Assembly (NCBI GenBank): GCA_963803145.1
Contig: CAWDLW010000023.1
Location: 96,001-160,000 of the forward strand
From: Methanotrichaceae archaeon
GTDB lineage: Archaea > Halobacteriota > Methanosarcinia > Methanotrichales > Methanotrichaceae
Direction of reading: 5' to 3'
DNA: 64,000 nucleotides
Of the stretch, positions 4,226 through 39,338 are shown one piece after another (positions within the stretch are counted from its first letter, which is position 1; every line of letters begins with the position of its first letter). The translations under genes and the position numbers were made by a program. The notes below the pieces were generated by a model. That model saw only the letters and a list, made by a program, of their open reading frames with translations. It did no database searches and had not been told where the DNA came from.

Positions 4226-4262
4226 GCGCTCGTGTGAGCGCTCGTGTGAGCGCTCGTGTGAG
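4226..4262 (+). repeat. Three exact tandem copies of GCGCTCGTGTGA
   Basis: Units at 4226, 4238 and 4250, directly before the capsid RBS. Confidence 0.95.
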
Positions 4263-4284
4263 TAATTTTAGGAGAGTGATAATT

Positions 4285-5250
4285 TTGGTATCTAACGATG
4301 GAATGAATAACTCCTCATTTATACCCATCGAATGGGCGATGGGACTGAGGACCATCGGTTACAACAGGATAACCGATTATGTGAAGAAGTACCAAGATAA
4401 CATGACTATGAGGAACGTCATAGCCAAAAAGACTGTGATAGATCCGGCTGCGGATATCGATCTGGTCCTTAGGTACGATGTAGACAATACAGAAGAGGCC
4501 AAGATCATGGCCAAGGGCTCTGTGGCCACGTCGCTCGAAGAGAACGGCAACATGGACAAGTATACTGTGATCCAGATCGGCAAGGGCTTCAAGATCTACG
4601 AGAGAGACCTGAAGAAAGATCCCGAGACCCAGACCAGGAAGATCGATATCTGCACAAGGCTGGTCCACAGGCTTGAGGATAAGCTAGCAATCCTCGGAAA
4701 CGTTGATGAAGGCATATACGGCCTTGCTAATGCAGCAGCCGATAACCCCAACGGTGAAATCCTGCCATTTGGGTCAGAAGAGGTCGAGAACGACAGCGGC
4801 GGCATCTCGATACCTAATAACGGTCAATGGAACGGCAAAGGACCCAACGGTAGGAGAGACATCTACGAAGATATCCTCGAAGCCACGACCAGAGTGGACC
4901 CTGACTTCGGATTCATGCCAGCATTCTTCATGGGCAATATCAGAACTTGTGCCATGCTGTTCAATAACGATTCCGAGAGGCATCCATTCGCTGACCAGAT
5001 CTGCGGCCTGTTCGGTAAGAATAGGGGCGACTATTCCTGGATATGGAGGTCTAACCTGATTCCTAATGGCATAGGCTATGTCATACCCAAGGATATGCTG
5101 GCTGCAGAGTTTGCCATCCAGTCTGAACTCCAGTTGAACACAGATTATCCGATCCAGCAGGGTAGGTTCTGGCCTGTAGACCTTACTGAGTGGATCGTGC
5201 CTGTTGAGGTCCACAGGAAGCAGGCTATAGTTCGAGTAGCTACGACTTAG
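4285..5250 (+). CDS. Major capsid protein (HK97 fold, encapsulin/DUF2184-like)
   Basis: ~321 aa; RLEDKLAILGN...GIYGLAN and YEDILEA motifs; RBS AGGAGAGTGA favours TTG 4285. Confidence 0.85.
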   Translation: MVSNDGMNNSSFIPIEWAMGLRTIGYNRITDYVKKYQDNMTMRNVIAKKTVIDPAADIDLVLRYDVDNTEEAKIMAKGSVATSLEENGNMDKYTVIQIGKGFKIYERDLKKDPETQTRKIDICTRLVHRLEDKLAILGNVDEGIYGLANAAADNPNGEILPFGSEEVENDSGGISIPNNGQWNGKGPNGRRDIYEDILEATTRVDPDFGFMPAFFMGNIRTCAMLFNNDSERHPFADQICGLFGKNRGDYSWIWRSNLIPNGIGYVIPKDMLAAEFAIQSELQLNTDYPIQQGRFWPVDLTEWIVPVEVHRKQAIVRVATT

Positions 5251-5264: not shown

Positions 5265-5564
5265 ATGGTCGATTCGAAATATGGAAAGCTAGTGATAGTC
5301 GGCACGGACAATATCGTTGACCAGGCCATTACCCTAGCTAAGCTTTATGGCGGCGGCGGGAAGTTCACGATTCCCGCCAATGCTGGAACAGTTACAATAG
5401 AGCATGGATGCCCTGAAGAGCCCGGCGTCGTCCTCCTAACAGACATCGACCTTCCGGCCATGGCCGTTGTTGATTCTGTAGATGAAACAAACTTAGTAAT
5501 CAAGTATAAAGGTGGAGTTAAACCGGATGTAGTAGGGCATGGCTATTGGATAGTGATTGCATGA
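5265..5564 (+). CDS. Small virion protein, possible head-fibre/decoration domain
   Basis: VTIEHG-x-x-x-x-P-x-V motif seen in fibre tip domains; follows capsid gene. Confidence 0.45.
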   Translation: MVDSKYGKLVIVGTDNIVDQAITLAKLYGGGGKFTIPANAGTVTIEHGCPEEPGVVLLTDIDLPAMAVVDSVDETNLVIKYKGGVKPDVVGHGYWIVIA

Positions 5565-8258: not shown

Positions 8259-8699
8259 ATGACCAATGTTAGAGGTTTGTTAGTTGCCGGTCAAAACCAG
8301 GCCCTGGATGCAGTCTTTGGCTCTGGAACCCCGGCAACATTGTATGCAGGATTGGCCCAAAGTGTAACAGGATCTCCTTTGGCTCCATCGGGCGAGCCGA
8401 CCATAGGAAGCAATGGATATGCCAGGGTAGCTATTACAAATAACGCTACCAACTGGCCTGCTGCATCAGCGGGCGCTAAGACTTGCCAGGTTGATGTAGT
8501 ATTCCCAACTTCGAGCGGTGCATGGGCTTCAGGAAACCAGCTTACAGTATTCGTACTGTATGATTCCACAAGTGGCGGAGCAGCAATAGGGTTTGCGACG
8601 TTATCAACGCCCATAATCATATCAGGTGCGGGCATCACTGTAAAGCTACTGCATGCGAACAACGACCTGCAGGTGTCCATAACCGGGTCCGATACGTAA
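8259..8699 (+). CDS. Phage fibre-attachment protein (Gp80-like, E-x-x-x-x-x-x-GYAR family)
   Basis: LYAGL...GEPTIGSNGYARVAITN...VFPTSSGAW...LYDSTSGG. Confidence 0.7.
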   Translation: MTNVRGLLVAGQNQALDAVFGSGTPATLYAGLAQSVTGSPLAPSGEPTIGSNGYARVAITNNATNWPAASAGAKTCQVDVVFPTSSGAWASGNQLTVFVLYDSTSGGAAIGFATLSTPIIISGAGITVKLLHANNDLQVSITGSDT

Positions 8700-8700
8700 A

Positions 8701-8897
8701 CGACGTAGAAGATCGGCGAAAAAGTACGCTGAGCTACGTTGGTTTGGTATAGCGGTTGAACATCTGTTATGGTCGAGCTTTCAGGCTATTGACAATATTA
8801 ACATTACAGTCCTTAGCCTGAACGCCCGACCTATGAAAGATCTGTTCTATGAACAATACCAGGAGAGCTTTCTGGCGAAAGATCCGCTCGGAAGCTC
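8701..8897 (+). ncRNA. Candidate structured RNA, three consecutive hairpins
   Basis: Helices 8701-8708/8734-8741, 8771-8788/8814-8831 and 8865-8872/8890-8897, several closed by G-U pairs on the + strand. Confidence 0.5.
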
Positions 8898-8923
8898 AAA
8901 ATTATTTAGCCAGGAGGAATATA

Positions 8924-9415
8924 ATGTCGAAGGAAAAAGACGATCTTGGCGACATGCCTGTATTAGACAGGTTAGTGCCGAATATACTAAGAGATGAAAG
9001 CAAAGATTGGTTGAACGACGATCTCTGTAACTACACAGGAGACGGCTCAGATCTGCCAACCGGAGGATATTCTACAGTCCCAGGTTGGAACCCTGAGAAG
9101 GTCGTTAGACAATGGATGGTAGAAGATGTAGACGCTGACGAGGGCTTCTCTCTAAAGCACACCAGAGAGCTTGTTGCTGACGATATTATTGTTGGCACAG
9201 TAATGAATCTGAAAGCTCTTGCCGTGATTGTCAGCGCTTTTGGCAGAGACTTCTATACTATCGAGGACGCCAATGGAGAGAGACTGACTCTTGACAAATG
9301 GTATCAGAAGTATGGCACAAATGGTCTCGGCCTGGTCGCTATTAGAAACATGAGAGAAGAACTCACAGGTGGCGGAGTTCATTACGGTGATAAGAAAGCA
9401 GAGGGATCTAAGTGA
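8924..9415 (+). CDS. Hypothetical acidic protein
   Basis: RBS AGGAGG before ATG 8924; overlaps the next gene. Confidence 0.65.
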   Translation: MSKEKDDLGDMPVLDRLVPNILRDESKDWLNDDLCNYTGDGSDLPTGGYSTVPGWNPEKVVRQWMVEDVDADEGFSLKHTRELVADDIIVGTVMNLKALAVIVSAFGRDFYTIEDANGERLTLDKWYQKYGTNGLGLVAIRNMREELTGGGVHYGDKKAEGSK

Positions 9416-9756
9416 GAATAAGAATCTTTGAATCCCTTATCATTATTTTACTCCTGATGTCTGTTGTTACTGCACATCTAGCCACACCGTTGAATATCGT
9501 GCAGAATGCAGGCAAAGAGAACATAACTACAATCTCTATTTCAGGCCTGAACTCAAGTGCCGCTGATGCGATGGGAAAACTCAACAACAATAATTCTCTG
9601 TGGCGAGGATCGACCTTCCGTAATTTCGACAACGGAATTCGCGTTGATGCGGAATATACAATTATTCAAGGAACAAATAGCACTATCGGCGGAGTTCCTA
9701 CAAATCTACTCAACTTCTCAAAGACTATGCCGCCAATCGTGAAAGTAGGTGATTAA
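9412..9756 (+). CDS. Small secreted or membrane protein
   Basis: N-terminal hydrophobic signal; several N-x-S/T sequons. Confidence 0.65.
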   Translation: MRIRIFESLIIILLLMSVVTAHLATPLNIVQNAGKENITTISISGLNSSAADAMGKLNNNNSLWRGSTFRNFDNGIRVDAEYTIIQGTNSTIGGVPTNLLNFSKTMPPIVKVGD

Positions 9757-9757
9757 A

Positions 9758-10687
9758 ATGGTTGATAATCGTCGTACACACGGAATAAAAATATCTGATG
9801 ACCAGCGCCATGCTAATCGTAAGAGAAGCATGGTAGCTCATCAAAAGCTGAGAGCCGAGCACTTCACATATCCGAATTCGACTGACTGGCGCAATGTTGA
9901 CGGTAAAGACTTTACTACTTCGATAAAAGATCAACTGCAATGTGGAGCATGTACTGCTTTTGGAACTTGCGGAGTTGGTGAGTGCGTGTTTAAGATCACT
10001 CAGAACGATCCAACGTTGCAGCCGGATTTCTCGGAGCAGTTCTTGTTCAATGCAGTGAAAGGAACCTGCGAGGATGGTGCTGACATCAACGATATCACTC
10101 AGGCTCTAGTCGCACCAGGAACACCGGACGAGGCGTGTTGCGAGTATCTCCAAAAGCAAGTTTGCCCAGATGCTATCACGAGACTTTTCAAGGCAACAGG
10201 CAATACAGAGATTGTGACGGATGCCGAAGCTAAGCAGTGGCTAGCCACGAAAGGTCCGTTGGTATCGGGTATGGGAGTTCCAAAATCGTTCAATGATTAT
10301 AATGGCGGGATATTCAAACAGCAAGGAGCTAATGATGCAATAGAAGGATATCACTGCATAGGAATTTACGGATACAACGAAAAAGAAGGTTATTGGATCT
10401 GTAAGAACTCCTGGGGATCAGATATTTGGGGAGAGGCAAACCCGAATCCAAACGCTGATCTGACTAAGAAAGGCTGGTTCAAAATGGGCTATGGCGAATG
10501 TGGCATGGGATCTGATATACCGTTCTTCGGATTCCAGGCGGTGAAAGGCCCAAACTCGCCTAACCCAAATCCTGAGCCAGACCCAACCCCAAGTCCGATT
10601 AACGAGATTCCGTTGTGGATTAAAATAGCGGCTATCGTTGTAACGGTCGTTATCATCGCGCTCGGATTATACTTCAGAGCGAATTAA
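9758..10687 (+). CDS. Papain-family (C1A) cysteine protease with C-terminal TM anchor
   Basis: DWR, DQLQCGACTAF, SEQFL, GYHCIGIYGY, KNSWG, GWFKM; Pro-rich linker then LWIKIAAIVVTVVIIALGLYF. Confidence 0.92.
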   Translation: MVDNRRTHGIKISDDQRHANRKRSMVAHQKLRAEHFTYPNSTDWRNVDGKDFTTSIKDQLQCGACTAFGTCGVGECVFKITQNDPTLQPDFSEQFLFNAVKGTCEDGADINDITQALVAPGTPDEACCEYLQKQVCPDAITRLFKATGNTEIVTDAEAKQWLATKGPLVSGMGVPKSFNDYNGGIFKQQGANDAIEGYHCIGIYGYNEKEGYWICKNSWGSDIWGEANPNPNADLTKKGWFKMGYGECGMGSDIPFFGFQAVKGPNSPNPNPEPDPTPSPINEIPLWIKIAAIVVTVVIIALGLYFRAN

Positions 10688-10698
10688 AGATCAAACGA

Positions 10699-13650
10699 CT
10701 GAGAGGCAGTATTATAAAAATTTTATTTTTATTCTTGGCAATCCTGTTAACAGGATTGCTGGTATCGACATCGATTGCATCAACTGCGCCTGTTGTAACG
10801 AACGCAAACTACTTTGCCTCGGAAAGTGCGAGACTAGGAGGAGTTGTATTAGATACAGGCGGAATTAATCCAACTGTTCATATATATTGGGGAACCTCAG
10901 ATGGTGGAACAACTGTGGGAAGTTGGCAGCATGACGAGAATCTTGGTATCCAGCCTCAAGGCGCTTTCCATAAAGACATAACCGGCCTCAGTCCAAGTTA
11001 TACGTATTATTTCAGATGTTATGCTGTTAACACCGTTGGGAGTGCGTGGGCTGACGGAACTACAAAATTTATAACCCAATCGTTGCCTGGCGCTCCGAGT
11101 GTCTCAAATTCTTACGGTGCGTCTAATATAGCTTATTCGTCAGCTAGATTAAACGGACTTATAACAGCCACTGGCGGTGAAAATCCCACGGTTCGAATCC
11201 ATTGGGGAACTACGGATAATGGAACTGCCGCCGCCAACTGGCAGCATAATGAAAGTCTAGGAGTATTGCCAGCGGGAGCCTTTTATGAAGATATAAATGG
11301 TCTCAGTGGAAATACTACATACTATTATAGGTGCTATGCAGCCAATCCAGGCGGGAGCGCATGGGCAAACAATACCTCAAATTTCACAATTACAAATTCG
11401 CCGATGCCGCTTGTAGGATCTAATGATAATGGCCCATGGCCCTATGGCGCAGGATTAGACTACTTTGATTTGATCCAATATAAAGCAACATCCAGCGGAA
11501 TAATAAACGATTTCAGGGTCAAGACATCAGGAAGTGGACATGTAAAAGTTGCAGTATATGCCGATAGTTCAGGCGCGCCAGGTGCATTGCTTTCCCGTTC
11601 CGACAATGCGGGAACAGCAGTAAGCGCGGGCTGGAATAATATAAGCATAGATGAAACAACCATAACCAAAGATAACTATTATTGGCTAGCATTCGATGCT
11701 GATGCTAATATTGTATGCTACAATTATTCCAGTAGTTGGCCGCTATCCTGGTATGGTAAAACTGCCATATATAGCAGCTTTACATTCCCACAGACAGCAG
11801 GTACGGGATTTGGTACATGGACAGGATACGCAGCAGCCGTATCTGCATGGTACGTTCCAGTGACTTCAAAGAAGCTAGTAGGAACGGCAGATAACGCCTA
11901 TCCTTACTTCTCAGGTAGTGGATGGTTTGCTCTTAATGAGTATAAAGCAACATCCAGCGGGATTGCAACTGTTTACAGGGTCAAGACATCAGGAAGTGGA
12001 CATGTAAAAGTTGCAGTATATGCCGATAGTTCAGGCGCGCCAGGTGCATTGCTTTCCCGTTCCGACAATGCGGGAACAGCAGTAAGCACGGGCTGGAATA
12101 ATATAAGCATTCCGGCAACGATTATAAATAAGAATAGTCACTATTGGCTGGCATTTATCGCCGACAGCGATATTATATGCTATACCTACGAAAGTGATTA
12201 TCCTATGTCATGGTATGGTAAAACTGCCACTTATAGCAGCTTTACGTATCCATCGACAGCGGGAGGAGGATTCACAACTTGGACGGGATATCATGCTGCG
12301 TTGGCTTTGTGGGATATGTCGATATTTCCGACAATCCCAAATCCTTACCAATGCTATAAAGGCACAAAAAACTTAACTTCTTTTTATCCCAATGCCCAAA
12401 TAGCGTACTGGACTCCATCAACTACTTATCCTGATGGATATGTCGCATTGTATACGCCTGCCAATGAATCTACACCGGCTAAAGTGATTGATCCTTTTCT
12501 TGGTATCAGTGATGCGAGTAAATATCCTGTGATAAGCAAGACTTTCGACAATTTGACGGCGTTCGATGACTATATGATATACGTCAATCCATATCCTGAA
12601 AACTACAGCTTTGCCAATACGTCCTTAACAGCTTTCAGAGATTCAATTAAAAACGCTTCCAAGAATGCAGCGATTAGTATAACTGTTAGTTCAAGTGATG
12701 ACGTTCCGATAGTCATAACAACAGATCTACCGTATATTTATTCTATAGGAGAGAGCAACGGCCAAACTTCGAGATGTCTAATATTCCCAGTGGCGGATCT
12801 AGGATATTGTGAAGCTGGCACGCTGGCTTTATGGCAACATTATCATGATCTGGGTATATCTTGTTGGATTGCTACATGGACCACACCGTTCTGGAGCAAT
12901 CAACCAAGTCATGACGAGCTGTGGATTCCCAACTGCGTCTCTGTACGATATCCGTCGGTGTTTCCTGGGCTGGTCGGCACAGACCCTAGTGGCTTGGGCA
13001 ATACGCCTTATTTCTCATACATTCAGGAATGGGAGGATACGCACGATAACAATCAACTTTCGTTTGCTTTGAAATTGGGGCAAGAGGCGGGGCTGGAACA
13101 ATATCTTGGAAGCAGCCCATTATATAGCCTGTTTACTAATTCGGCTGGCGGCACTTTGATAGATTCGCACTATGGGCCAGAATTCTGTGACCAGATGCCC
13201 ACTCCTTCACATTTGAGTGCTACCCCGGCTGAATATCAAGCATATGAGAGGTCGTTATGGGCTGATGTAACAAATTTGAAGCTTAGTGCCAGTCATATGA
13301 AATGGAGCCCTTCCCAACTCGAACATATCAATAGTAGGCTTGAGGAAATCAATAGAACTTTGGACATTATCAACGCTTCGATGAGCTCTTCGGAACCTCT
13401 CAATAACACCATGCAGCGCTATTTAAACTACGGACTTAACAACAGCAGCCTAAATCTAACAGTGAATATGAACATCACAGAATGCGGGCCTATTGGCGAT
13501 TGTTACAACATTACTGAAGAGCCTAAATATTCCAACGAAAGCGAAAATCTGACATTTGCCAGATTCTCGCCACAGAGAATATCGATAAAGACTTCACCGA
13601 ATGCGAGCACAGCGGCTCGCAGACATCGAAGCCAGAACAATCAATTTTGA
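10699..13650 (+). CDS. Large secreted modular protein: 2 FN3-like repeats, 2 beta-sandwich repeats, C-terminal transglutaminase-like domain
   Basis: Signal peptide; GGxNPTVxIxWGT x2; VKVAVYADSSGAPG x2; GYC...LGI...H...DPS triad; start CTG 10699 or TTG 10735. Confidence 0.7.
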   Translation: MRGSIIKILFLFLAILLTGLLVSTSIASTAPVVTNANYFASESARLGGVVLDTGGINPTVHIYWGTSDGGTTVGSWQHDENLGIQPQGAFHKDITGLSPSYTYYFRCYAVNTVGSAWADGTTKFITQSLPGAPSVSNSYGASNIAYSSARLNGLITATGGENPTVRIHWGTTDNGTAAANWQHNESLGVLPAGAFYEDINGLSGNTTYYYRCYAANPGGSAWANNTSNFTITNSPMPLVGSNDNGPWPYGAGLDYFDLIQYKATSSGIINDFRVKTSGSGHVKVAVYADSSGAPGALLSRSDNAGTAVSAGWNNISIDETTITKDNYYWLAFDADANIVCYNYSSSWPLSWYGKTAIYSSFTFPQTAGTGFGTWTGYAAAVSAWYVPVTSKKLVGTADNAYPYFSGSGWFALNEYKATSSGIATVYRVKTSGSGHVKVAVYADSSGAPGALLSRSDNAGTAVSTGWNNISIPATIINKNSHYWLAFIADSDIICYTYESDYPMSWYGKTATYSSFTYPSTAGGGFTTWTGYHAALALWDMSIFPTIPNPYQCYKGTKNLTSFYPNAQIAYWTPSTTYPDGYVALYTPANESTPAKVIDPFLGISDASKYPVISKTFDNLTAFDDYMIYVNPYPENYSFANTSLTAFRDSIKNASKNAAISITVSSSDDVPIVITTDLPYIYSIGESNGQTSRCLIFPVADLGYCEAGTLALWQHYHDLGISCWIATWTTPFWSNQPSHDELWIPNCVSVRYPSVFPGLVGTDPSGLGNTPYFSYIQEWEDTHDNNQLSFALKLGQEAGLEQYLGSSPLYSLFTNSAGGTLIDSHYGPEFCDQMPTPSHLSATPAEYQAYERSLWADVTNLKLSASHMKWSPSQLEHINSRLEEINRTLDIINASMSSSEPLNNTMQRYLNYGLNNSSLNLTVNMNITECGPIGDCYNITEEPKYSNESENLTFARFSPQRISIKTSPNASTAARRHRSQNNQF
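11514..12110 (+). repeat. 135-bp intragenic direct repeat (11514-11648 and 11976-12110), one mismatch
   Basis: Direct comparison; offset 462 bp; G11626 vs A12088. Confidence 0.93.
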
Positions 13651-13729
13651 ATCATTTTTCAGTGCTCGGCAGTCGCTTTTTTGTTGCTGTCAATCTCGCA
13701 TTGAATGTTTAAGAAAATCTAGGAGGAAA

Positions 13730-14047
13730 ATGAAAATGGCAGATAAAACTGTAGAGAAACTTGGTATAGATTGGAAAGGGTTTAGACAGGATGCTTTGCT
13801 GACAGCTCAGGAGATCATGAATGCGAAAGATGCTCTTGAGTCGAACCCCAAGATAATGAGCGATGCTATGACTCTTGGCACTGCTCTTGGCGTGTGCATC
13901 GGAACATGGAGCCTAGTCCCAGGATTTGCAGTAGGTCAGGCTGCAATGAACCTCATGAACGATATCGTTGCCGATAAAACCCTGGTGACCGAGTGCGCCA
14001 CTCTTGTAGAGCTTCTAAAGAAGCTGGCAGCCGACATAGCGCAGTAA
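13730..14047 (+). CDS. Small helical protein with a Gly-rich hydrophobic hairpin (possibly membrane-active)
   Basis: RBS AGGAGG; LGTALGVCIGTWSLVPGFAVG. Confidence 0.55.
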   Translation: MKMADKTVEKLGIDWKGFRQDALLTAQEIMNAKDALESNPKIMSDAMTLGTALGVCIGTWSLVPGFAVGQAAMNLMNDIVADKTLVTECATLVELLKKLAADIAQ

Positions 14048-14148
14048 GAAGGGATGCCTTATCACCACGAGCGCCCGTGTGATAAGACAGAGCCCTCATC
14101 GACACCTAACTCTCTCTCAGATTTTAATCTTTTTCGAGAGGCGATCGG

Positions 14149-14472
14149 ATGGCTGAGATTAATGTCGTGTCTCGGATGGCCGTTTTTGAGGACTTCAAAA
14201 CGAGGGCCGAGAAACAGATCGAAGAGCTTTTCAGCAAGATCAACAGCTACGAGGTGTGCACAGCCACAATCAATGTGATGCTGCCTACAATTCAGCGAGA
14301 TTTAACGAAGATCACGGAAGATCTTGAGTCGTTGAAGACATCGCTGAACCAGGGCAAAGGCAAGTCGAAAGCTTGGTATGAGATCCGAGAGTGGCTAGCT
14401 GTTTTCTGTACTCTCGGAGCGGTTGTCATAGCCGGCATCTCTCTCGTAGTCGGCCACATGTTCTGGAAATAA
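14149..14472 (+). CDS. Holin/XhlA-like protein (coiled coil plus C-terminal TM)
   Basis: Heptad coiled coil, basic GKGKSK, then WLAVFCTLGAVVIAGISLVVG. Confidence 0.6.
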   Translation: MAEINVVSRMAVFEDFKTRAEKQIEELFSKINSYEVCTATINVMLPTIQRDLTKITEDLESLKTSLNQGKGKSKAWYEIREWLAVFCTLGAVVIAGISLVVGHMFWK

Positions 14473-14496
14473 CATCTGTGTTCGTCGGTTAAAGTT

Positions 14497-16722
14497 ATGA
14501 CTCTGCTAAAGTTCAATAGCAAATATGTATTGACGGACTCTTCTCATTCCGTCAACGTCTCATCGTCAACTTTAGCCGATGACACATACGCCTCTCAGAC
14601 TTTTTCATTATCTAAGACTCAAACAGTCCTTGTTATATATCAGGTCGCTAATAATTATGGAACTACTGAAGATTCAGCAGGAAAATATATAGCCATCAAT
14701 GTAGATGGAGTGAATTACGGTCAGGTTGGCCAATGTCCATACGATTCTAATTTTCCTGAAGGGGAGACAACTTTCTGGATCGGTTCATTGGCTGCAGGGA
14801 ACCATACTATTAAAGGCCAATTTGCTGCTACAGTCAATACGAAAACTGTTACTATCGATAACAGAAGCTTGATTATAATAATCTTTGACGGTGACGAATT
14901 TACTTTAGCAACAAGCGCAGTCGCTAACACATTTACGAGTACCTCATTTGCTGATGATAACGTTTCAATTACCGCAACTCCATCAGGGTCATGTGTTGCG
15001 TTAGCAATTTATGCCGTATCTAATAATAAAGGATCTGTAGAAGGAGGTTATGGCAGAAAGATTGCAATTAATTTTGGCGGCAGTGATTTGGTTCAGGTTG
15101 AAGGTACGCCAGCATGTGCCGCAAATTATACAGAGGCGGAATTTACAGCTTATGCAGCTAGTCAAGATGCAACTTCGCTGACGGTTAAAGGAAGGGCAGC
15201 GGTAAACTCATCAGGTACATCAACAATAGATAGGCACTATTTGGCATTGCTGTTTTTCGATCCATCGACTCTACTTGATATAAATACTACAGTTTCTCAA
15301 GTATCTACTACCAGTAACACATTAGTTGATGATTCACAATGTACTATCAGTAGAACAACTACCGACTCAAGAGAACTGCTAGTTATTGCAATAGGCACAA
15401 AACGCCGACCAACGAGCTCGGATTTTCATGGCGAATGTTATGGAATAAGTATCAATGGCGTGGATGTTGCTAGTTCGAGACAGTCACCGTTTAACTCCGG
15501 CGAAGCTAATTCAGTGTCTACAAGCTATGGTCTTACGGTAGCTGCAGGAAGTCAGACAATTAAAGGCAGACTCTCAAACAATTTGACCACCAGCACCGCA
15601 ATAATCGATGCCAGGGTAGTTATTGCATTATGGTTCTCATCAGGTTCTACCGTTGAAGATACTGCTTCAATTGGATCTATAAGCAATTTAACATCTACTG
15701 ATGAGCCATTGATTGAATTATCTGCTAATTTAGCGAATATATCAAAGATTTACGGTGTTAGAGAACTTATACAACAGATCCAATCAATCTTAACCAATTA
15801 TAGCTCTATTCAGTCAACGGACAGAATAATAGCAGAATTGGGCCTTATAATAGAGAGCATATCAAGTGCAAGCTCAATAGATGAGGTTACAGCCGAACCT
15901 ACAGCATCTATTAGTACATTAGCTCGAATCTATAGTGCCTATTCGTTATTTGAATTGATTGAAATAGCTGCATCCTGTCGGTCAGCCTCCCTAATTTCTG
16001 CTGTTGATAGGGTCCTAGCCGAGGCTGCAGCCCAGATCTTATCAGAGACGAATGTTCAGGCCATAACCGAGAGATTGCATGAATCTAGGGCTAATATAGA
16101 GGCTTCAAGCCTGCTTCAATCTAATGATGAGGTCCTGGAAATCGTACATTTAGCAATAGATTCAATCTCTAGGATTTTGTCAGATAACGAAAACATAGCA
16201 GAGACTGCAGCCAACTTGAGATCAAATTCAAAGCTTATGGCCGCTGCGTCCTTGATCTTGATAGAGGTTATAGAGAGGATAATTTCATCTTCTGAAGTAA
16301 ATCCTACGTTATGGCAAATCCAAGAGAGCCAGGCTAGATTATCATCAATATCTTCAGAATATAGCCATCTAGATTTAATTGCTGATATAGCCGCATTAAT
16401 CGTAGGCTCTTCAAGGATCTTATGTTCATCAAAGCAGGACGCAGAGTTTAAAGCGAAAGTATTTTCAGATTCCATTTTCTTTATAAACGAGTTTACCCGC
16501 CTATACGAGGCGTCAGCTGACATAAAATCTCTCGGCAATCTCATTTCAAGAATAAATGAGATTCAGGAAATCCAGGGCCTTATTCTTTCCGATTCTGAAT
16601 TAGAGGCCATGGCTTGGGCTGAAATGATCTATGTTAAGCTTTGGATGGAGACCTCTCTTTATAGAAATAACTTTGATAAAACCCAGATATTCAGGAAGAT
16701 GTATGATAGCTCGGAGGTGTAG
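14497..16722 (+). CDS. Fibre/receptor-binding protein: three ~125-aa head repeats plus Ser/Ile/Ala spacer
   Basis: STLADD, TSFADD and NTLVDD repeats; A-x-I-x-S-x-S repeats in the C-terminal half. Confidence 0.65.
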   Translation: MTLLKFNSKYVLTDSSHSVNVSSSTLADDTYASQTFSLSKTQTVLVIYQVANNYGTTEDSAGKYIAINVDGVNYGQVGQCPYDSNFPEGETTFWIGSLAAGNHTIKGQFAATVNTKTVTIDNRSLIIIIFDGDEFTLATSAVANTFTSTSFADDNVSITATPSGSCVALAIYAVSNNKGSVEGGYGRKIAINFGGSDLVQVEGTPACAANYTEAEFTAYAASQDATSLTVKGRAAVNSSGTSTIDRHYLALLFFDPSTLLDINTTVSQVSTTSNTLVDDSQCTISRTTTDSRELLVIAIGTKRRPTSSDFHGECYGISINGVDVASSRQSPFNSGEANSVSTSYGLTVAAGSQTIKGRLSNNLTTSTAIIDARVVIALWFSSGSTVEDTASIGSISNLTSTDEPLIELSANLANISKIYGVRELIQQIQSILTNYSSIQSTDRIIAELGLIIESISSASSIDEVTAEPTASISTLARIYSAYSLFELIEIAASCRSASLISAVDRVLAEAAAQILSETNVQAITERLHESRANIEASSLLQSNDEVLEIVHLAIDSISRILSDNENIAETAANLRSNSKLMAAASLILIEVIERIISSSEVNPTLWQIQESQARLSSISSEYSHLDLIADIAALIVGSSRILCSSKQDAEFKAKVFSDSIFFINEFTRLYEASADIKSLGNLISRINEIQEIQGLILSDSELEAMAWAEMIYVKLWMETSLYRNNFDKTQIFRKMYDSSEV

Positions 16723-16725
16723 GGC

Positions 16726-17025
16726 ATGTATGCTATACAAGGAGATACGGGAGGTCAAATAATTATAGATGTCTATGAGCGGGATGAGAACCAAGTTAAA
16801 CAGCCCGTAGATATAAGCGCTGCAATGCTGCTAAGGCTTGATGTAACCAGGCAGGACGGATCAATGGAGCAATGGACAGCAACCTTCTTTTCCAATACCC
16901 AGATATCTTATGTCATTCCGGCTAATGCTCTTCCTAAAAAAGAGACTATAAAAATTGATCCTTTTATTAAATGGTCTCCTGATCTATATTTCCATGGAAC
17001 GCCGATTTATCTTATTGTAGGGTGA
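16726..17025 (+). CDS. BppU N-terminal-like fibre/baseplate adaptor
   Basis: QGDTG...PVDISAA...DG...W-x-A...ISY pattern. Confidence 0.6.
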   Translation: MYAIQGDTGGQIIIDVYERDENQVKQPVDISAAMLLRLDVTRQDGSMEQWTATFFSNTQISYVIPANALPKKETIKIDPFIKWSPDLYFHGTPIYLIVG

Positions 17026-17028
17026 ATC

Positions 17029-18420
17029 ATGAGGCATAATACAGGAGTTATCAAGCAGAAACCAGACCCAAGGGATTATTCGATATATCACCCTAAAGTA
17101 AGATCATACTTCGAAAAAACTTTATTGCCTCATTTCTTGTTACCTTCATCAATAGACCTTAGATCTACCGGCAATATGCCTGAAAAAATATGGGATCAGG
17201 ACGGATTCAATACATGTGCTGCTTTTGCTTGTGCCGGTTGCATCGATTATGTTCTTCATAGGGATTATGGAATATTTTTAGATCCTTTAGGCCCATCTAA
17301 GGCATTTCAATATTATAATGCTACAATTCTCGAAGATGGAATCCCAATACAATTATCGCCATCGGCAGGAAGTACGATACGAGGTAACATGATGGCCGTT
17401 ATTGATTACGGGACCATTCCAGAATCGGATTATCTTTACACTGGTGATAACTGTGTGATGGACCCAGGAAGTGAAAATTATAATCTCGGGTCTCGAAATC
17501 TTGCCACTGCTGCAGTACTTATAAGTCAGCCAGGAATGAATTTAACCCAAATTCATAACGCAGCAAAGGCGCAAATTGCGGCAGGCAATCCAGTCGAATT
17601 CTGGGTAGCGTATTATCAACAGTTAGATGATGCAGACCATAGCACCGGAAATATAGGTATACCTTCATCATCAGGGGATTATCACAATACATTGCATGCA
17701 TTAAATTTAATTGGATATGATAATAACCATCTTAATTCAGATGCTTCATTAGGAGCTTACATTGTCCGCAATCATTGGGGTACATCCTGGGGGTTGAATG
17801 GCTATGGATGGCTTCCTTATTGGTGGTTCACTCATTTAGATCCATGGCTTAGTTCTCCTATGGTAGGTGATTTCTGGGTTTTAGTTTCAATGAACTATAA
17901 CTCAGCTCTGGATAAGGAGATATCGGGAGTTCTCAGAACAGTTTCAGAATTCAATGCAACTCCTGAAACTACAATATTCACAGAAGGAGCTAGCGGTTTA
18001 TTTGATGCATATCTTAACATAGCGCTAGATTCCGTACTTGGTTCAGGCAGTCCATCAAGTCTTTATGCGGGCCTGGTTACAGATTGCAGCAAAGACGGCA
18101 TATTAACCGGCGAGCCTACGATAGGAGTTAACGGATATGCCAGAGTCCAAATGGATAACGACGATACTGTTTTCCCTGCTGCAGCAGGTGGGGTTAAGAC
18201 TTGTGCTGCAGATATATTTTTCCCAGAATCTACCGGCTCATGGGCTTTAGGTAATGCATTTACGTATCTAGTTTTGTTCGATGCACCGAGCAGCGGGAAT
18301 GCTCTTGCTGCAGCACCACTTTGGCAGCCTTTCTATGTTCCTTCAGCTCGATACATGGCCGAATTCTTAGCCTTGTATCAATCCATCCAATTCTCATTAT
18401 TGCGAGTAGGTGGGGGTTAG
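17029..18420 (+). CDS. Papain-family (C1A) protease fused to a C-terminal Gp80-like virion domain
   Basis: PDPRDY, LPSSIDLR, DQDGFNTCAAF, HALNLIGYD, RNHWG, GYGWLPY; C-terminal ~150 aa paralogous to 8259-8699. Confidence 0.9.
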   Translation: MRHNTGVIKQKPDPRDYSIYHPKVRSYFEKTLLPHFLLPSSIDLRSTGNMPEKIWDQDGFNTCAAFACAGCIDYVLHRDYGIFLDPLGPSKAFQYYNATILEDGIPIQLSPSAGSTIRGNMMAVIDYGTIPESDYLYTGDNCVMDPGSENYNLGSRNLATAAVLISQPGMNLTQIHNAAKAQIAAGNPVEFWVAYYQQLDDADHSTGNIGIPSSSGDYHNTLHALNLIGYDNNHLNSDASLGAYIVRNHWGTSWGLNGYGWLPYWWFTHLDPWLSSPMVGDFWVLVSMNYNSALDKEISGVLRTVSEFNATPETTIFTEGASGLFDAYLNIALDSVLGSGSPSSLYAGLVTDCSKDGILTGEPTIGVNGYARVQMDNDDTVFPAAAGGVKTCAADIFFPESTGSWALGNAFTYLVLFDAPSSGNALAAAPLWQPFYVPSARYMAEFLALYQSIQFSLLRVGGG

Positions 18421-20580
18421 ATGACTGTTTTGACCTGGACCCAAACGAGCAGCAACTTAAATAGTACGAAATATGCGATGGGCGGGGATGGGAACAGAGG
18501 CGCAGCTATTTGCATTGGTGGTGATCATTACGGATCAGACATAATAGAAACTGAAGTATTCAACGGCTCTTCATGGTCTGTAGTGAGCAGCATGAATTAT
18601 AGCAGGCAATTTTTAGCGGCCGGAGGTTCGCCATCGGCAGCTTTTGCAACTTGCGGCCAAAATATGTATGTAGGCGGATCTATTAAGTCTACAGAACTCT
18701 ATAATGGTACTACATGGGCTATTTCTATTGATTGTTCAACTGCACGAAAGGAGCTAGCCGGTGGAGGTTCACCTTCTGCAGCTATAATTATGGGAGGCCA
18801 AGACGGCGTACAAACATACGATTTGTGCGAAACCTTTAATGGATCGGCATGGAGCACTCAAGGCAGCCTAACAGCAGTAACCCAAGACATGGGAGGCCAT
18901 GGAGATCCAACAAATGCCATAATTGCCGGTGGCATTGATGATATAGGTGTAACAAATACCACCCAGATTTGGAGCGGTTCAGCCTGGTCAAACACTGGAA
19001 CTTTAAACACATCTCGGCAAATGTTAGTAGTCGGCGGATCTTCAACTAACGCCTTATCAGCTACAGGAATGACGGCTACAGGTTATTGGTCTAACGCAAC
19101 AGAGCTATTCAATGGATCAACATGGTCAGTTGATTCTGCATTTCCAATGTACTGCGGTTATGGTGCAGGCAACGGCAATGCATCAACGGGTATAATTTTT
19201 GGTGGTCGAGCTTCAGCACCTCTATATCTATACTATACCTGGACGGCGCTTGCATCGAATATAGAAGAATCAGCATCTTTAGTTTCAGTCTCGAAGATTA
19301 GATCAAACTTCGAATATCCTATAGAAATATCTGAGAGTATAGGAAGTATATCGGGAATAACCGCAAATATTAGTGCTCTGGATGCTGAAAGAGTAGCGCT
19401 GATAACGACTATCTCCAGCATTCTTGCGACAGGGACACCATACGGGCCTAGGGAGATTGTCGCAGATTCAATAAGCGTTTCGGAAATTATAGCAAATGCT
19501 GAATATGAAATAGAAAAGGCCGCACACATCCTGAGTATATCCTTAATGGATGGCCATTTCGATTTTGGCGCTACAATAGATTCAGAAAGCCAAATCATAG
19601 CCAATCCCGAGCTAATCTATGAAGCTCATGGCAATATTCATAGCATCTCAAATGTTCTGGCCTATATCAGCGAGTATTATCTTCATACGGCAGCTAACCT
19701 GAATTCAGAGACCCAGTTTTTAGCCTGGCCGGAATGGGGGGATGTCTATACTCAGCTCGAAATAGCTCATATAACTTCAAGCTCGATAGTTAACGCAATA
19801 GGTAACTCGGAGCACGAATTAAGGGCTCTTTTGGCTTCTGGATCATCTTTAAGTTCAATCCTCCATTTAATACAAGATTGCTGGGCGGCAGGCTCAAACA
19901 CCTCAAAAATCTGGGTAGTAGGGACTGAAATTGATGTTCCTTTGGATATCATTTTAGCAGAATTTACCGTCCCGCCGCTATCATTAGTCTTTGCCAGGGT
20001 TTGCCCAATAAAAGATTTCACCGAGGAGGTAAATGTGGCTCAAAACGAAATAATATTTAAAGGGCAGTCTATGCTGAGGCTGCAGATAACCACGAACACG
20101 CCGATATCCGGAGCACAAGAATTAAGGATCAAATACAAGAAACCATCTGGAGTTACTGGACATTTTAGCGCTACGTCTATTGATGACATAAACGGTGTCT
20201 TAATTAGAGATATCATAGACAATTCCGAGATAGACGAGCAAGGAGATTGGACTATATGGCCATGGGTGAAGTTTTCAGATGGTCGAGATGCTCCGGGGTT
20301 CTGGGTAAAGATGACAATCATAGACGAGCCAGGCCATGAGCTAACCAGAGCCAAGCCTGTTAAACAGGCGAATCCTCGGACGCCCTTTACCTATATTTAC
20401 AAAAAGAATGGTCATCCTATTGCTTATGCCAAGCTGCTAATAGTTCAAAGGGATGAGCAAATCGAGGCTAAAACAGATATTCACGGCAAAGCAGGTCCTT
20501 ATTTGCTGATGCCTGGGCGCGTAGATATCAGGTCTCTTGATGGCCTCAATCATCATGAAATTTGCGAGGTAGGGGGATAG
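18421..20580 (+). CDS. Kelch-like beta-propeller fibre protein with spacer and BppU-like domain
   Basis: Six ~47-aa GG...TE-x-(F/Y)NG-x-x-W repeats; S-x-S spacer; YKKPSG...GDW-x-I-x-PWV domain. Confidence 0.75.
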   Translation: MTVLTWTQTSSNLNSTKYAMGGDGNRGAAICIGGDHYGSDIIETEVFNGSSWSVVSSMNYSRQFLAAGGSPSAAFATCGQNMYVGGSIKSTELYNGTTWAISIDCSTARKELAGGGSPSAAIIMGGQDGVQTYDLCETFNGSAWSTQGSLTAVTQDMGGHGDPTNAIIAGGIDDIGVTNTTQIWSGSAWSNTGTLNTSRQMLVVGGSSTNALSATGMTATGYWSNATELFNGSTWSVDSAFPMYCGYGAGNGNASTGIIFGGRASAPLYLYYTWTALASNIEESASLVSVSKIRSNFEYPIEISESIGSISGITANISALDAERVALITTISSILATGTPYGPREIVADSISVSEIIANAEYEIEKAAHILSISLMDGHFDFGATIDSESQIIANPELIYEAHGNIHSISNVLAYISEYYLHTAANLNSETQFLAWPEWGDVYTQLEIAHITSSSIVNAIGNSEHELRALLASGSSLSSILHLIQDCWAAGSNTSKIWVVGTEIDVPLDIILAEFTVPPLSLVFARVCPIKDFTEEVNVAQNEIIFKGQSMLRLQITTNTPISGAQELRIKYKKPSGVTGHFSATSIDDINGVLIRDIIDNSEIDEQGDWTIWPWVKFSDGRDAPGFWVKMTIIDEPGHELTRAKPVKQANPRTPFTYIYKKNGHPIAYAKLLIVQRDEQIEAKTDIHGKAGPYLLMPGRVDIRSLDGLNHHEICEVGG

Positions 20581-23937: not shown

Positions 23938-23988
23938 TTGTATGTTCACAGGGAGCATACAACTAAAATATTTTTAGGATTGATACTT

Positions 23989-37536: not shown

Positions 37537-38505
37537 TCACACCCCCAGCTGTGGTATGCATGCCAGATACTTTTCTCTGACAAGTTCCATATCAATTTTA
37601 TTATACCTGTGGAAAGCTAGCCCCCTCATGGAATCTCCCCTCAGGACCATAATATATTCTGTGGGCATACCAGCTCTCCATAAATATGTGGTGAACCAAT
37701 GCCTGCAGCAGTGCGCCGTGAACTGATCCTCCAGTCTGGAAGAGTTCGGATTATGAAGCCCGACACGCTCGGCATGGGCTTTGATGATCTCATTTATTTG
37801 CCAGCCAGTTATACGGCCGGATATCCCTCCTGGAAAGAGAGCCTCGCTGCCATGAGATCTATACTTTCTGGCCTGCAACCAGGCCTCCAGGACATCCGCA
37901 GTCTCGTTGTCGAAGAATAATAGCCTGTTGGAACGCTTAGCTGTCGGCTTCAGAAGGATCTCCATTTTTTCCAGATTGACATCAGATACATCGAGATTGC
38001 GCATCTCTTCTCTTCTCATACCCATCTTCAGAAGACTCCATACGATCGCCCTATCTCTGCTGTTTAATATCGAGTTTGCAAGCTTTGATGCGTCCTTGAT
38101 GCTTATTAGCTGTCTTGACTCCTGATAGCTATCCTCTTTATACCTATGCAAATACCGTTGCTTGAATGGGATAATTGGATTGTAGGCGATCATATGCTTA
38201 TATGCCAAGAACGAATAGAATTGTGATAAGCTGGCAAATATGCGATTCAGGCTAGATGGTTTGAGGCTCCTGGATTTAAGGTCTATAAGATACGCCTCCA
38301 TATCGCTTTCTTCGACCTCCAGAGGAGTCTTTCCACGGGCCTGCAGGAATCCAATGAATGCGCGGGTATATGTCATAGAGGCCTTGGGATTTATACCCCT
38401 CAAAATACAATCAGCCTTAAACTTATTTGCTAAATCTTCGGGAGAGAAAGTATCCTTTTCCAGGCCTTGAAAGTCAATTGTTTTGGCAGCATTCATCTGA
38501 TCCAC
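37537..38505 (-). CDS. Tyrosine recombinase/integrase
   Basis: SAM-like N domain; GMRREE, K, HCCRH and catalytic Tyr in HRYNKID. Confidence 0.95.
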   Translation of the reverse strand: MDQMNAAKTIDFQGLEKDTFSPEDLANKFKADCILRGINPKASMTYTRAFIGFLQARGKTPLEVEESDMEAYLIDLKSRSLKPSSLNRIFASLSQFYSFLAYKHMIAYNPIIPFKQRYLHRYKEDSYQESRQLISIKDASKLANSILNSRDRAIVWSLLKMGMRREEMRNLDVSDVNLEKMEILLKPTAKRSNRLLFFDNETADVLEAWLQARKYRSHGSEALFPGGISGRITGWQINEIIKAHAERVGLHNPNSSRLEDQFTAHCCRHWFTTYLWRAGMPTEYIMVLRGDSMRGLAFHRYNKIDMELVREKYLACIPQLGV

Positions 38506-39153: not shown

Positions 39154-39338
39154 ATAAGTTAATTGGGCAGAAGCTATGAATAAAATTTGCTCATTTGGAC
39201 ATCTTTATGGATGCCGTCTTTTCTGACCATAAAAATTAATCGTGTCGAATATTTGGATTAACCCAAAGATAGTAATATTCGCTATAATAGTCTTTCTTTC
39301 GACTAATTGCCTAATAAATTCAAGCTTTGAAGTTTAGT

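What the first reader, a model, noticed from the sequence alone, without database searches (positions are those of the whole stretch)
8700..18420. Candidate protease-based entry and egress system: three cysteine proteases plus holin-like genes in a Methanothrix-type provirus
Seen: the virion operon encodes a TM-anchored papain (9758), a secreted protein with a Cys-His-Asp motif (10699), a second papain fused to a structural domain (17029), a small secreted protein (9412) and two membrane-active candidates (13730, 14149). No glycan hydrolase or pseudomurein-binding repeat is visible in the window. Known: Methanothrix has a protein S-layer and sheath and no pseudomurein. Characterised methanogen virus lysins (PeiW/PeiP) cut pseudomurein. 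Inference: the virus breaches an all-protein envelope with proteases, one on the particle for entry and two exported for release or spread along the filament. I do not know of a described lysis system of this type.
Basis: partly seen in the sequence, partly recalled or inferred. Interest (0 to 1): 0.85.

Follow-up and report, generated by a model that had tools for sequence, protein, structure and literature searches.

The report
Cysteine proteases in a Methanothrix-family provirus
An integrated tailed virus of a sheathed methanogen carries two intact papain-type protease genes, one fused to a virus fibre subunit and one sitting among small membrane proteins, which makes a protease-based way through an all-protein cell wall a testable idea.

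Summary
Two of the three claimed proteases are real. ORF 9749-10687 and ORF 17029-18420 both pass Pfam's cut-off for Peptidase_C1 and keep the Gln/Cys/His/Asn/Trp catalytic set. The third, the 971-aa secreted protein, has no support from Pfam, PF01841, PDB, the Atlas or a fold.

The host belongs to Methanotrichaceae, inferred from kin. No conventional lysin was found in the window or the left arm.

- **Fibre papain.** The second papain is fused to a Gp80-type chain-like fibre monomer. A stand-alone paralogue lies at 8259-8699. Only one other such fusion turned up.
- **Membrane papain.** The first papain has a C-terminal membrane anchor and no signal peptide, so "exported" is not shown.
- **Related viruses.** None of 18 related viral loci or 10 whole records carries a papain. 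Three related records carry a caspase-family (C14) protease at the same place in a syntenic module of small membrane proteins.

Best reading: a fibre-borne envelope protease plus a protease-bearing egress module. This is inferred, not shown. The idea is interesting and the evidence is moderate.

The parts
8259..8699 (+). Stand-alone Gp80-type chain-like fibre monomer (146 aa)
   Evidence: PF23140 E 1.6e-12, 48.3 bits against a cut-off of 27. It is 45% identical to residues 321-457 of ORF 17029-18420.
8849..9415 (+). 188-aa protein of unknown function, the first gene of the syntenic module
   Evidence: Relatives at 40-50% identity in 5 IMG/VR loci of 4 records and at 28% in one more (alignment). 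No Pfam or PHROG match.
9412..9756 (+). 114-aa protein with an N-terminal signal-like hydrophobic segment
   Evidence: Hydropathy. Proteins of 112-123 aa with signal-like starts sit at the same position in L126, L154, L155 and L123. Homology is not shown (hhalign probability 40.6%).
9749..10687 (+). Papain-family (C1) protease with a Pro-rich linker and a C-terminal membrane helix; no N-terminal signal peptide
   Evidence: Pfam; catalytic residues; helix at 289-307. Nearest relatives are cellular C1 peptidases of Methanotrichaceae at 36-46% identity. The best non-self representative is 50% identical.
10735..13650 (+). 971-aa secreted multidomain protein: signal-like start, FN3-like region, two ~170-aa repeats and an orphan C-terminal 430 aa. 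Not shown to be a protease.
13730..14047 (+). 105-aa protein with a weakly hydrophobic Gly-rich stretch; membrane association uncertain
   Evidence: Kyte-Doolittle maximum 1.44 over 19 residues. No family match.
14149..14472 (+). 107-aa coiled-coil-like protein with a C-terminal membrane helix (holin-like candidate, unproven)
   Evidence: Helix at 83-101. Relatives at 30% identity in 7 of 18 related loci and at 35% in L158. Next to a 65-aa two-helix ORF in L120.
14497..16722 (+). 741-aa fibre-like protein: three ~125-aa N-terminal repeats and a C-terminal region with 20-residue periodicity (possible fibre 'rope'; inference)
   Evidence: Autocorrelation peaks at lags 20, 40, 10 and 60. The C-terminal region is 28.6% identical over 210 aa to that of ORF 18421-20580 (E 7.7e-14).
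16726..17025 (+). 99-aa ORF of unknown function between the fibre genes
   Evidence: No family match.
17029..18420 (+). Papain-family protease (about residues 40-290) fused to a C-terminal Gp80-type fibre monomer (about residues 320-460)
   Evidence: Pfam; catalytic residues. PDB best match is 3ois xylellain by sequence (E 9.9e-12) and by fold (Foldseek E 1e-15, TM on target 0.75). AF2 gives pLDDT 80-90 for the papain part and under 50 for the C-terminal part.
18421..20580 (+). 719-aa fibre-like protein: ~45-aa N-terminal repeats and a C-terminal region related to that of ORF 14497-16722
   Evidence: phrog_27227 E 1.2e-30. The N-terminus is 34% identical to that of ORF 28779-33527. Repeats.
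4234..5250 (+). Major capsid protein (context)
   Evidence: phrog_264 E 2.6e-6. Relatives in 3 of 104 other family genomes and in 15 IMG/VR contigs.
23938..28764 (+). Tape-measure protein (context)
   Evidence: PF10145 E 5.8e-26.
37537..38505 (-). Tyrosine integrase (context; near the right end of the provirus)
   Evidence: phrog_1 E 9.5e-28.

Best explanation
The window holds most of an integrated tailed virus of a Methanotrichaceae archaeon, a host whose wall is a protein S-layer plus a protein sheath. Two intact papain-family genes sit in its late operon.

(1) ORF 17029-18420 is a subunit of a chain-like fibre. Its C-terminal Gp80-type domain joins the fibre together with the stand-alone paralogue at 8259-8699. 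This probably happens on the repeat-rich proteins encoded at 14497-16722 and 18421-20580. The N-terminal papain is therefore displayed on the particle, where it would cut sheath, plug or S-layer protein during adsorption, much as a tailspike depolymerase cuts capsule.

(2) ORFs 9412-14472 form an accessory envelope module: a small signal-peptide protein, a membrane-anchored papain, a large secreted adhesin-like protein and two small proteins, one of which has a clear membrane helix. It would work like a holin-endolysin cassette in which the wall-cutting enzyme is a protease held at the membrane until late permeabilisation.

Shown here: domain identities, catalytic residues, hydrophobic segments, synteny and distribution. 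Inferred: virion location, substrate, timing and pore formation. The third claimed protease is not part of the system as far as any tool can tell.
For: - **Domains and catalytic residues.**
- **Fibre monomer biology.** Gp80-type monomers form dimers strung on a rope or fibre-dock protein in phages GP4, VP1 and A1002 (PMC13730344, section 11 read in full).
- **Two Gp80-type genes here.** They are 45% identical.
- **Predicted pairing.** The stand-alone monomer and the C-terminus of the fusion scored ipSAE 0.53 against a best control of 0.00, with runs agreeing in at least 90% of contacts and partner pLDDT at least 82. The tool rates this as weak support: the mark was reached by 51 of 78 solved pairs and 2 of 108 mismatches, and at 0.60 or under by only 5 of those 78 and by all 4 passing mismatches. 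Similar dimers are solved, so the pass may come from memory.
- **A second fusion.** One other papain+Gp80 fusion exists (P0159, 410 aa). Its papain aligns full-length with the membrane-papain type (32%) and not with the window's fusion, so the fusion arose twice.
- **Fusions are unusual.** All 15 of 15 Gp80-like ORFs found in IMG/VR are stand-alone, at 134-151 aa.
- **A protease slot in related viruses.** Three related viral records (L126/L157, L154, L155) have this order: 8849-like gene, 112-115-aa signal-peptide protein, small membrane ORFs, Peptidase_C14 (E 2.2e-29, 7e-26, 8.5e-32), 93-aa protein with a C-terminal helix, then a further membrane protein.
- **Membrane-protein clusters.** Small membrane-protein clusters after the head genes occur in L120, L123, L125, L128 and L130 as well.
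- **No other lysin.** Pfam shows none in the provirus.
- **C1 domains in other phages.** They occur in uncultured tailed phages, some named peptidoglycan-binding or muramidase. A C1+Amidase_2 protein exists in a Negativicutes genome.
- **Literature.** How tailed archaeal viruses without pseudomurein hosts lyse cells is stated to be unknown (PMC10791045, passages). Virus proteases against the sheath are named as a possibility (PMC11576556, passages).
Against: - **No papain in related viruses.** There are 0 hits in 18 loci by tblastn and by a papain profile. PF00112 hits 0 of 10 whole records, 2 of them complete. PF00656 hits only 1 of those 10. The proteases are therefore accessory and not a lineage core.
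- **No export signal.** The membrane papain has none. A C-terminal anchor would normally leave the enzyme in the cytoplasm, and the C14 proteases have neither a signal nor a helix.
- **Host-like genes.** Both papains, and the C14 genes, have their nearest relatives among cellular genes of the host family in non-viral contexts. They could be cargo with another role.
- **No holin family matched**.
- **Module partners are analogues only.** The 107-aa and 93-aa proteins are not detectably homologous (hhalign probability 1.8%). The same holds for the small secreted proteins (40.6%).
- **Gp80 fold not confirmed.** The Gp80 part of the AF2 model is of low confidence, so its fold was not checked against the solved fibre.
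- **Synteny differs.** In the C14-bearing viruses the module is followed by DUF4417-type genes rather than tail genes.
- **No data on expression, virion content or activity.**
Confidence: 0.45

Rival explanations
1. The proteases are host-derived cargo genes with a non-lytic role at the cell surface. They could remodel or remove receptors (superinfection exclusion), process the virus's own secreted proteins (the 114-aa and 971-aa proteins), or serve the lysogen. Their place in the late operon would then be incidental.
For: - Nearest relatives are cellular C1 peptidases of Methanotrichaceae (f1 22 of 36, f3 0 of 21) and about 305-aa cellular C1 genes in non-viral contexts.
- The papains are absent from related viruses.
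- The block 9412-13650 looks like an insertion when compared with L120 and L153, which lack it.
Against: - Spacing is tight and all genes lie on one strand inside the structural operon.
- A non-homologous protease (C14) occupies the same slot in three related records.
- The fusion to a fibre monomer arose twice. That is hard to explain for a gene that serves the lysogen.
Confidence: 0.25
2. The membrane-anchored papain, and the C14 proteases of related viruses, act inside the cell. They would cut host proteins (takeover or counter-defence) or activate a pore-forming partner by cleavage, in the way caspase-like proteases activate bacterial gasdermins. That comparison is recalled and comes from no call.
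For: - Neither the papain nor the C14 proteins has a signal peptide, and the anchor is C-terminal.
- Small membrane proteins lie next to the protease genes.
Against: - No gasdermin-sized partner and no matching family was found.
- A signal-peptide protein always precedes the protease, and a large secreted protein follows it here, which points outward.
- Ordinary endolysins also lack signal peptides.
Confidence: 0.15
3. The papain of ORF 17029-18420 is an assembly or maturation protease of the fibre. It would trim fibre subunits or release itself, and it would not attack the host.
For: - In phage A1002 the first ~30 residues of a Gp80-type monomer are missing from the map, and the authors suggest proteolytic removal (PMC13730344, section 11).
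- The gene lies between two fibre-like genes.
Against: - All 15 of 15 other Gp80-type genes found in IMG/VR have no protease attached, so fibre assembly does not need one.
- Two different papain subtypes were fused independently. This fits a payload better than a dedicated maturase.
Confidence: 0.1

Closest known systems
Holin-endolysin lysis cassettes of tailed bacteriophages, including PeiW/PeiP of methanogen viruses
   Same: A wall-degrading enzyme gene lies beside small membrane-protein genes in a late operon. The enzyme has no signal peptide, which is also true of the C14 genes in related records. C1 domains joined to peptidoglycan-binding or amidase domains occur in other phages and bacteria.
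   Different: The predicted substrate is protein (S-layer or sheath), not murein or pseudomurein. The enzyme family is C1 (or C14), not a known lysin family. No holin family matched. The papain carries its own C-terminal anchor. PeiW/PeiP-type domains were not reported by Pfam in any ORF scanned.
Chain-like fibres of podophages GP4, VP1 and A1002 (Gp80-type monomers; PF23140)
   Same: Two genes have domains that pass the family cut-off. Using two paralogous monomers in one fibre is described for A1002.
   Different: Here one monomer carries a ~290-aa papain at its N-terminus. The virus has a long tape-measure gene, so it is not a podovirus. The host is an archaeon. The rope or dock partner is only guessed.
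Tailspike and fibre depolymerases of phages (virion-borne enzymes that cut surface polymers)
   Same: An enzyme domain is joined to a virion attachment domain and encoded among fibre genes.
   Different: Known depolymerases cut glycans or peptidoglycan. A 2026 review of S-layers and viruses has no occurrence of protease, proteolytic or peptidase (PMC13437554, term search only). Here the enzyme is a papain.
Viral sheath-like (SH-like) proteins proposed for egress from sheathed archaea (Medvedeva, Borrel and Gribaldo 2024, PMC11576556)
   Same: The host group and the problem are the same: getting out through a protein sheath. The paper names virus proteases as a possible alternative (passages). 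This provirus has a signal-peptide protein of 185 aa (5561-6118) after the capsid gene, which meets their size and signal criteria.
   Different: Their mechanism is tampering with sheath assembly, not proteolysis. I did not test whether 5561-6118 has the amyloid-like fold. Their supplementary lists of (pro)viruses could not be seen, so this provirus may already be among them.
Xylellain and other bacterial C1A peptidases
   Same: It is the best solved match of the fused papain by sequence and by fold, with the same catalytic residues.
   Different: Identity is about 23%. Here the domain is part of a virus fibre protein.

Membership tests
Peptidase C1 (papain family), ORF 9749-10687 | Match to the family profile above the curated cut-off | tested here: met
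   PF00112 91.7 bits against 20.7.
Peptidase C1 (papain family), ORF 9749-10687 | Oxyanion Gln, catalytic Cys, His and Asn, and the following Trp | tested here: met
   Q62, C68, H202, N220 and W222 are invariant in 13 of 13 sequences.
Peptidase C1 (papain family), ORF 17029-18420 | Profile match, catalytic residues and papain fold | tested here: met
   PF00112 40.2 bits against 20.7. The same invariant columns are kept. Foldseek best match is 3ois, E 1e-15, TM on target 0.75, on a model with pLDDT 80-90 in this domain.
Peptidase C1 (both genes) | Proteolytic activity | not testable with these tools
   Needs an enzyme assay.
Gp80-type chain-like fibre monomer (PF23140), ORFs 8259-8699 and 17029-18420 | Match to the family profile above the curated cut-off | tested here: met
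   48.3 and 46.9 bits against 27.
Gp80-type chain-like fibre monomer | Fold like the solved monomer | tested here: inconclusive
   The AF2 C-terminal part has pLDDT under 50, so the fold searches reported only papain matches. ESMFold2 gave pLDDT 83-86 for the two domains, but no fold comparison was possible on that model.
Gp80-type chain-like fibre monomer | Forms dimers | tested here: inconclusive
   Complex prediction gave weak support: 0.53 against a best control of 0.00. Similar dimers are solved, so the pass may come from memory.
Gp80-type chain-like fibre monomer | Dimers dock on a rope or fibre-dock protein of the tail | not tested
   Candidate rope regions with 20-residue periodicity lie in ORFs 14497-16722 and 18421-20580. 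No docking test was run.
Transglutaminase-like cysteine protease (PF01841), ORF 10735-13650 | Match to the family profile, or any relative or fold of that kind | tested here: not met
   No Pfam match at E 0.1. The genome-wide PF01841 search hits two other places only. No PDB match. AF2 pLDDT 32.9. Only a motif seen by eye remains.
Holin, ORFs 13730-14047 and 14149-14472 | Small protein with at least one membrane helix next to a lysis enzyme | tested here: inconclusive
   ORF 14149 has one C-terminal helix. ORF 13730 has only a weak stretch. Both lie within 3.5 kb of the papain.
Holin | Membership of a described holin family | tested here: not met
   No Pfam or PHROG holin family matched. The only matches are weak and are to families of unknown function.
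Holin | Timed pore formation | not testable with these tools
   Needs expression tests.
Pseudomurein endoisopeptidase (PeiW/PeiP type) or other conventional lysin | Any such domain in the provirus | tested here: not met
   None was reported by Pfam in 28 window ORFs and 16 left-arm ORFs. About 22 ORFs under 120 aa were not scanned (list).
Viral SH-like sheath protein (PMC11576556) | Signal peptide and a length of 150-350 aa | tested here: met
   ORF 5561-6118 is 185 aa with a hydrophobic start. This rests on a hydropathy heuristic, not on SignalP.
Viral SH-like sheath protein | Amyloid-like core of two beta-sheets | not tested
No paralogue in the host genome by tblastn at E 1e-4.

The most novel reading that the evidence does not exclude
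A lineage of tailed viruses of sheathed Methanotrichaceae has recruited host cysteine proteases, papain (C1) in this provirus and caspase-type (C14) in three related viruses, as the wall-cutting enzyme of a lysis cassette built from small membrane proteins. This provirus also arms a chain-like fibre with a second papain to cut its way in. That would be the first protease-based entry and egress system for cells with an all-protein wall.
Probability: 0.3. Interest if true: 0.85.

Novelty: new variant of a known kind. Interest (0 to 1): 0.68.

Why it matters
- **An open question.** How tailed archaeal viruses leave hosts that have no pseudomurein is stated to be unknown (PMC10791045, passages). 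For sheathed methanogens the only published proposal is sheath-like decoy proteins, with proteases mentioned as an untested alternative (PMC11576556, passages).
- **Concrete genes to test.** This provirus, together with the three C14-bearing relatives found here, supplies two papains, a conserved small membrane protein and a fibre fusion.
- **What it would show if true.** Viruses would meet a protein wall with proteases, much as phages meet murein with muramidases and capsules with depolymerases.
- **Possible tools.** It would yield enzymes that open Methanothrix sheaths. This genus is a major acetoclastic methane producer and hard to handle genetically (statement from general knowledge, no call).

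Tried and rejected
- **Third protease.** Pfam, PF01841 over the whole genome, PDB sequence search at E 10, the Atlas (0.78), a homologue search of residues 540-971 (self only) and a single-sequence fold (pLDDT 32.9) all gave nothing. I rejected it as a shown protease.
- **Close DNA relatives among phage records.** None found.
- **Single-protein scans for relatives of the fused papain and of the capsid protein.** None found. Alignments were needed.
- **Papain alignment in IMG/VR.** It gave 6 loci, two of them giant-virus records. The 4 loci I checked (of the 6; the two giant-virus records were left out) share no other gene with the provirus.
- **Provirus ends.** A 17-base direct repeat lies at C23:77255 and at window 39302. 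However, the left and right flanks map to different contigs of the same-genus genome G002. The first ~157 bases right of the repeat are a dispersed repeat with many copies. The ends stay unresolved, and no tRNA gene is nearby.
- **Homology of the module's small proteins between papain- and C14-bearing viruses.** Not shown.
- **Contexts of the cellular homologues.** The 6 contexts of C14 homologues and the 6 contexts of fused-papain homologues that I fetched hold no other provirus or module gene.
- **Metagenome scan with P0159.** It gave 9 loci that match the protease part only, so the context of that second fusion is unknown.
- **Sequencing runs.** None was listed and no RNA holder was listed.
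- **Papers not seen.** Medvedeva et al. 2023 (the compendium of methanogen viruses) is not held, and supplements are closed. I cannot say whether those lists already include this provirus or annotate such proteases.
- **Searches behind 'not described'.** They are listings; term search in one review. 'Archaeal virus' plus 'papain' returned 10 papers, and none is on this topic by title.

Full report
**Where the window lies.** The window is G000:C23:96001-160000 of a 4.13-Mb genome in 51 contigs, with about 45% G+C. The genome has mcrA and two 16S genes. Its McrA is closest to Methanosarcinales-type enzymes in the PDB. The first papain has relatives in 22 of 36 sampled genomes of the same family (f1) and in 0 of 21 genomes of family f3 of the same class. 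When the papain alignment was scanned over named genomes, the best matches (35-44% identity) were records titled Methanothrix sp., Methanotrichaceae archaeon or Methanosaeta sp.. I therefore take the host to be a member of Methanotrichaceae. This is an inference from kin, because the genome's own record is withheld. That members of this order have a protein sheath and S-layer comes from PMC11576556 (passages).

**The element.** One strand carries, in order:
- a portal-like gene (112-1560, conserved in 17 of 18 related loci);
- a major capsid gene (4234-5250, phrog_264);
- the region of the finding;
- a tape-measure gene (23938-28764, PF10145);
- large fibre-like genes;
- on the other strand, an integrase (37537-38505).

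It holds a beta-solenoid protein, DUF5131, a Dam methylase, DUF4417, a radical-SAM protein and the N-terminal half of a large terminase. Host genes (MFS transporter, PAS kinase, Hef) lie further left. The ends of the element are not settled.

**The observation.** Both papains are real and look active.
- The first papain (9749-10687) ends in a Pro-rich linker and one membrane helix. Its first 40 residues are hydrophilic, so it has no signal peptide.
- The second papain (17029-18420) is xylellain-like. It carries a C-terminal domain of Pfam family PF23140.
- A stand-alone member of PF23140 lies at 8259-8699 and is 45% identical to that C-terminal domain.
- The small secreted protein, the signal-like start of the 971-aa protein and the helix of the 107-aa protein are confirmed by hydropathy.
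- The 105-aa protein is only weakly hydrophobic.
- The 971-aa protein could not be shown to be a protease by any route.

**What the fibre domain implies.** Section 11 of PMC13730344 (read in full) describes Gp80-type proteins of 140-171 aa. They form dimers strung along a rope or fibre-dock protein to make chain-like fibres in phages GP4, VP1 and A1002. A1002 uses two paralogous monomers. Here there are also two paralogues, one of which carries a papain.

The neighbouring 741-aa and 719-aa proteins share a C-terminal region (28.6% over 210 aa, E 7.7e-14), and in the 741-aa protein that region has a 20-residue period. I guess that these are the ropes. A predicted pairing of the stand-alone monomer with the C-terminus of the fusion got weak support (0.53, best control 0.00). 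Such dimers are already solved, so the pass may reflect memory.

A search for longer proteins with the 146-aa domain found one protein, P0159, which also has PF00112 plus PF23140. Its papain is of the other subtype, so the fusion arose at least twice. In IMG/VR, all 15 of 15 Gp80-like ORFs are unfused. A protease on a fibre is thus rare but recurrent.

**Related viruses.** The capsid protein has relatives in 3 of 104 other family genomes and in 15 IMG/VR contigs.
- None of these 18 loci has a papain.
- PF00112 hits 0 of the 10 whole viral records searched, two of which are rated complete.

The neighbourhood is nevertheless telling. The 107-aa protein has relatives in 7 of the 18 loci. In L120 it follows a 65-aa ORF with two helices. 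L123, L125 and L128 have clusters of small membrane proteins at the same stage of the gene order.

The record behind L126 (61.5 kb, rated complete) has a homologue of ORF 8849-9415 (47% identity). It is followed by a 112-aa signal-peptide protein, a Peptidase_C14 caspase-domain protein (E 2.2e-29), a 93-aa protein with a C-terminal helix and another membrane protein. A scan with the 8849 family found two more records with the same order, L154 and L155, whose C14 matches have E 7e-26 and 8.5e-32. So a cysteine protease of an unrelated family occupies the slot that the anchored papain fills here.

The small partners are analogues by position and build only. In the C14 viruses the module is followed by DUF4417-type genes rather than tail genes.

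**Origin of the proteases.**
- The anchored papain is 36-46% identical to cellular C1 peptidases of the host family. Most of these are long multidomain proteins, and one has a signal peptide.
- The fused papain's domain is 28-34% identical to cellular ~305-aa proteins in non-viral contexts.
- The C14 proteins are 38-50% identical to genes in 24 of 104 family genomes, and the 6 contexts I checked are non-viral.

All three therefore look recruited from the host lineage. This fits both the 'weapon' reading and the 'cargo' reading.

**How it most likely works, and the rivals.** I favour two linked roles. The first is a fibre-displayed papain that cuts envelope protein at entry. The second is a module in which small membrane proteins give a membrane-held or cytoplasmic protease access to the wall at the end of infection.

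Domains, residues, hydrophobic segments, gene order and distribution are shown. Location in the virion, substrate, timing and pore formation are inferred. The rivals are surface remodelling by cargo genes, intracellular action (including activation of a pore former) and fibre maturation. They are set out with their tests in the report sections.

**Comparison with what is known.**
- The logic matches holin-endolysin cassettes and tailspike depolymerases, but the enzymes and the presumed substrate differ.
- C1 domains do occur in tailed phages. Some are named as peptidoglycan-binding or muramidase proteins, and one is fused to an amidase in a Negativicutes genome. A C1 domain in a lysis enzyme is therefore not without precedent.
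- For sheathed archaea the published proposal is SH-like decoy proteins, and the same paper names proteases as a possibility.
- This provirus also has a 185-aa signal-peptide protein after the capsid gene that meets their size and signal criteria. Relatives at 36% identity occur in L154 and L156. I did not fold it.
- I found no paper describing a papain or caspase-type gene in an archaeal virus lysis or fibre module (searches; term search). The compendium paper and all supplements could not be seen.

**Verdict.** The finding is not ordinary. The fibre fusion and the swap of C1 for C14 in a syntenic membrane-protein module are new, concrete leads on an open question. Nothing here shows activity, export or virion location, and the papains are accessory among relatives. 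I rate it a new variant of known kinds, with interest 0.68 and confidence 0.45 in the favoured mechanism.

Noticed in passing
L126 16339-17133; L154 8310-9050; L155 8159-9019: Caspase-domain (Peptidase_C14) genes sit in three related IMG/VR viral records, each between a small signal-peptide protein and a 93-aa protein with a C-terminal membrane helix. Cellular homologues at 38-50% identity occur in 24 of 104 Methanotrichaceae genomes.
   Followed up: partly
P0159 (protein from the homologue search; contig of 5.5 kb not readable here): A second papain+Gp80 fusion (410 aa). Its papain is of a different subtype from the window's fusion. Its genomic context is unknown.
   Followed up: partly
window 5561-6118: A 185-aa Gly/Ser/Thr/Asn-rich protein with a signal-like start lies right after the capsid gene. 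Relatives at 36% identity occur in L154 and L156. It is a candidate for the published viral sheath-like proteins but was not folded.
   Followed up: partly
window 14497-16722 and 18421-20580: Two fibre-like proteins share a C-terminal region. In the 741-aa protein that region has a 20-residue period. The 741-aa protein also has three ~125-aa repeats, and the 719-aa protein has ~45-aa repeats that are also found at the start of ORF 28779-33527.
   Followed up: partly
window 39302-39475 and C23:77255: A 17-base direct repeat flanks the element about 58 kb apart. The ~157 bases to the right of it are a dispersed repeat with many copies in the same-genus genome G002, so it may not be an attachment site.
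   Followed up: partly
L010 16519-17364 and 17384-18115 (C23:94519-96115): The large terminase seems to be split. A 281-aa ORF holds the N-terminal ATPase domain (PF03237) and is followed by a separate 243-aa ORF with no Pfam match.
   Followed up: no
L126 12115-12882: An HNH/NUMOD3 homing-endonuclease-like gene is inserted among the head genes of a related virus.
   Followed up: no
L125 13119-13895 and L128 14733-15482: Homologous proteins of about 250 aa, signal-anchored and beta-rich, lie inside small-membrane-protein clusters of two related viruses. They have no Pfam match and may be sheath-like proteins.
   Followed up: no
L027, L030, L031, L032, L035 (Methanotrichaceae genomes): Cellular C1 peptidases of 670-780 aa, related to the anchored papain, carry two to four C-terminal repeats of about 130 aa. 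Most have no signal peptide, and their role is unknown.
   Followed up: no
P0005 (Negativicutes protein): A bacterial protein combines Peptidase_C1 with Amidase_2 (PF01510). That is a lysin-like domain pair.
   Followed up: no
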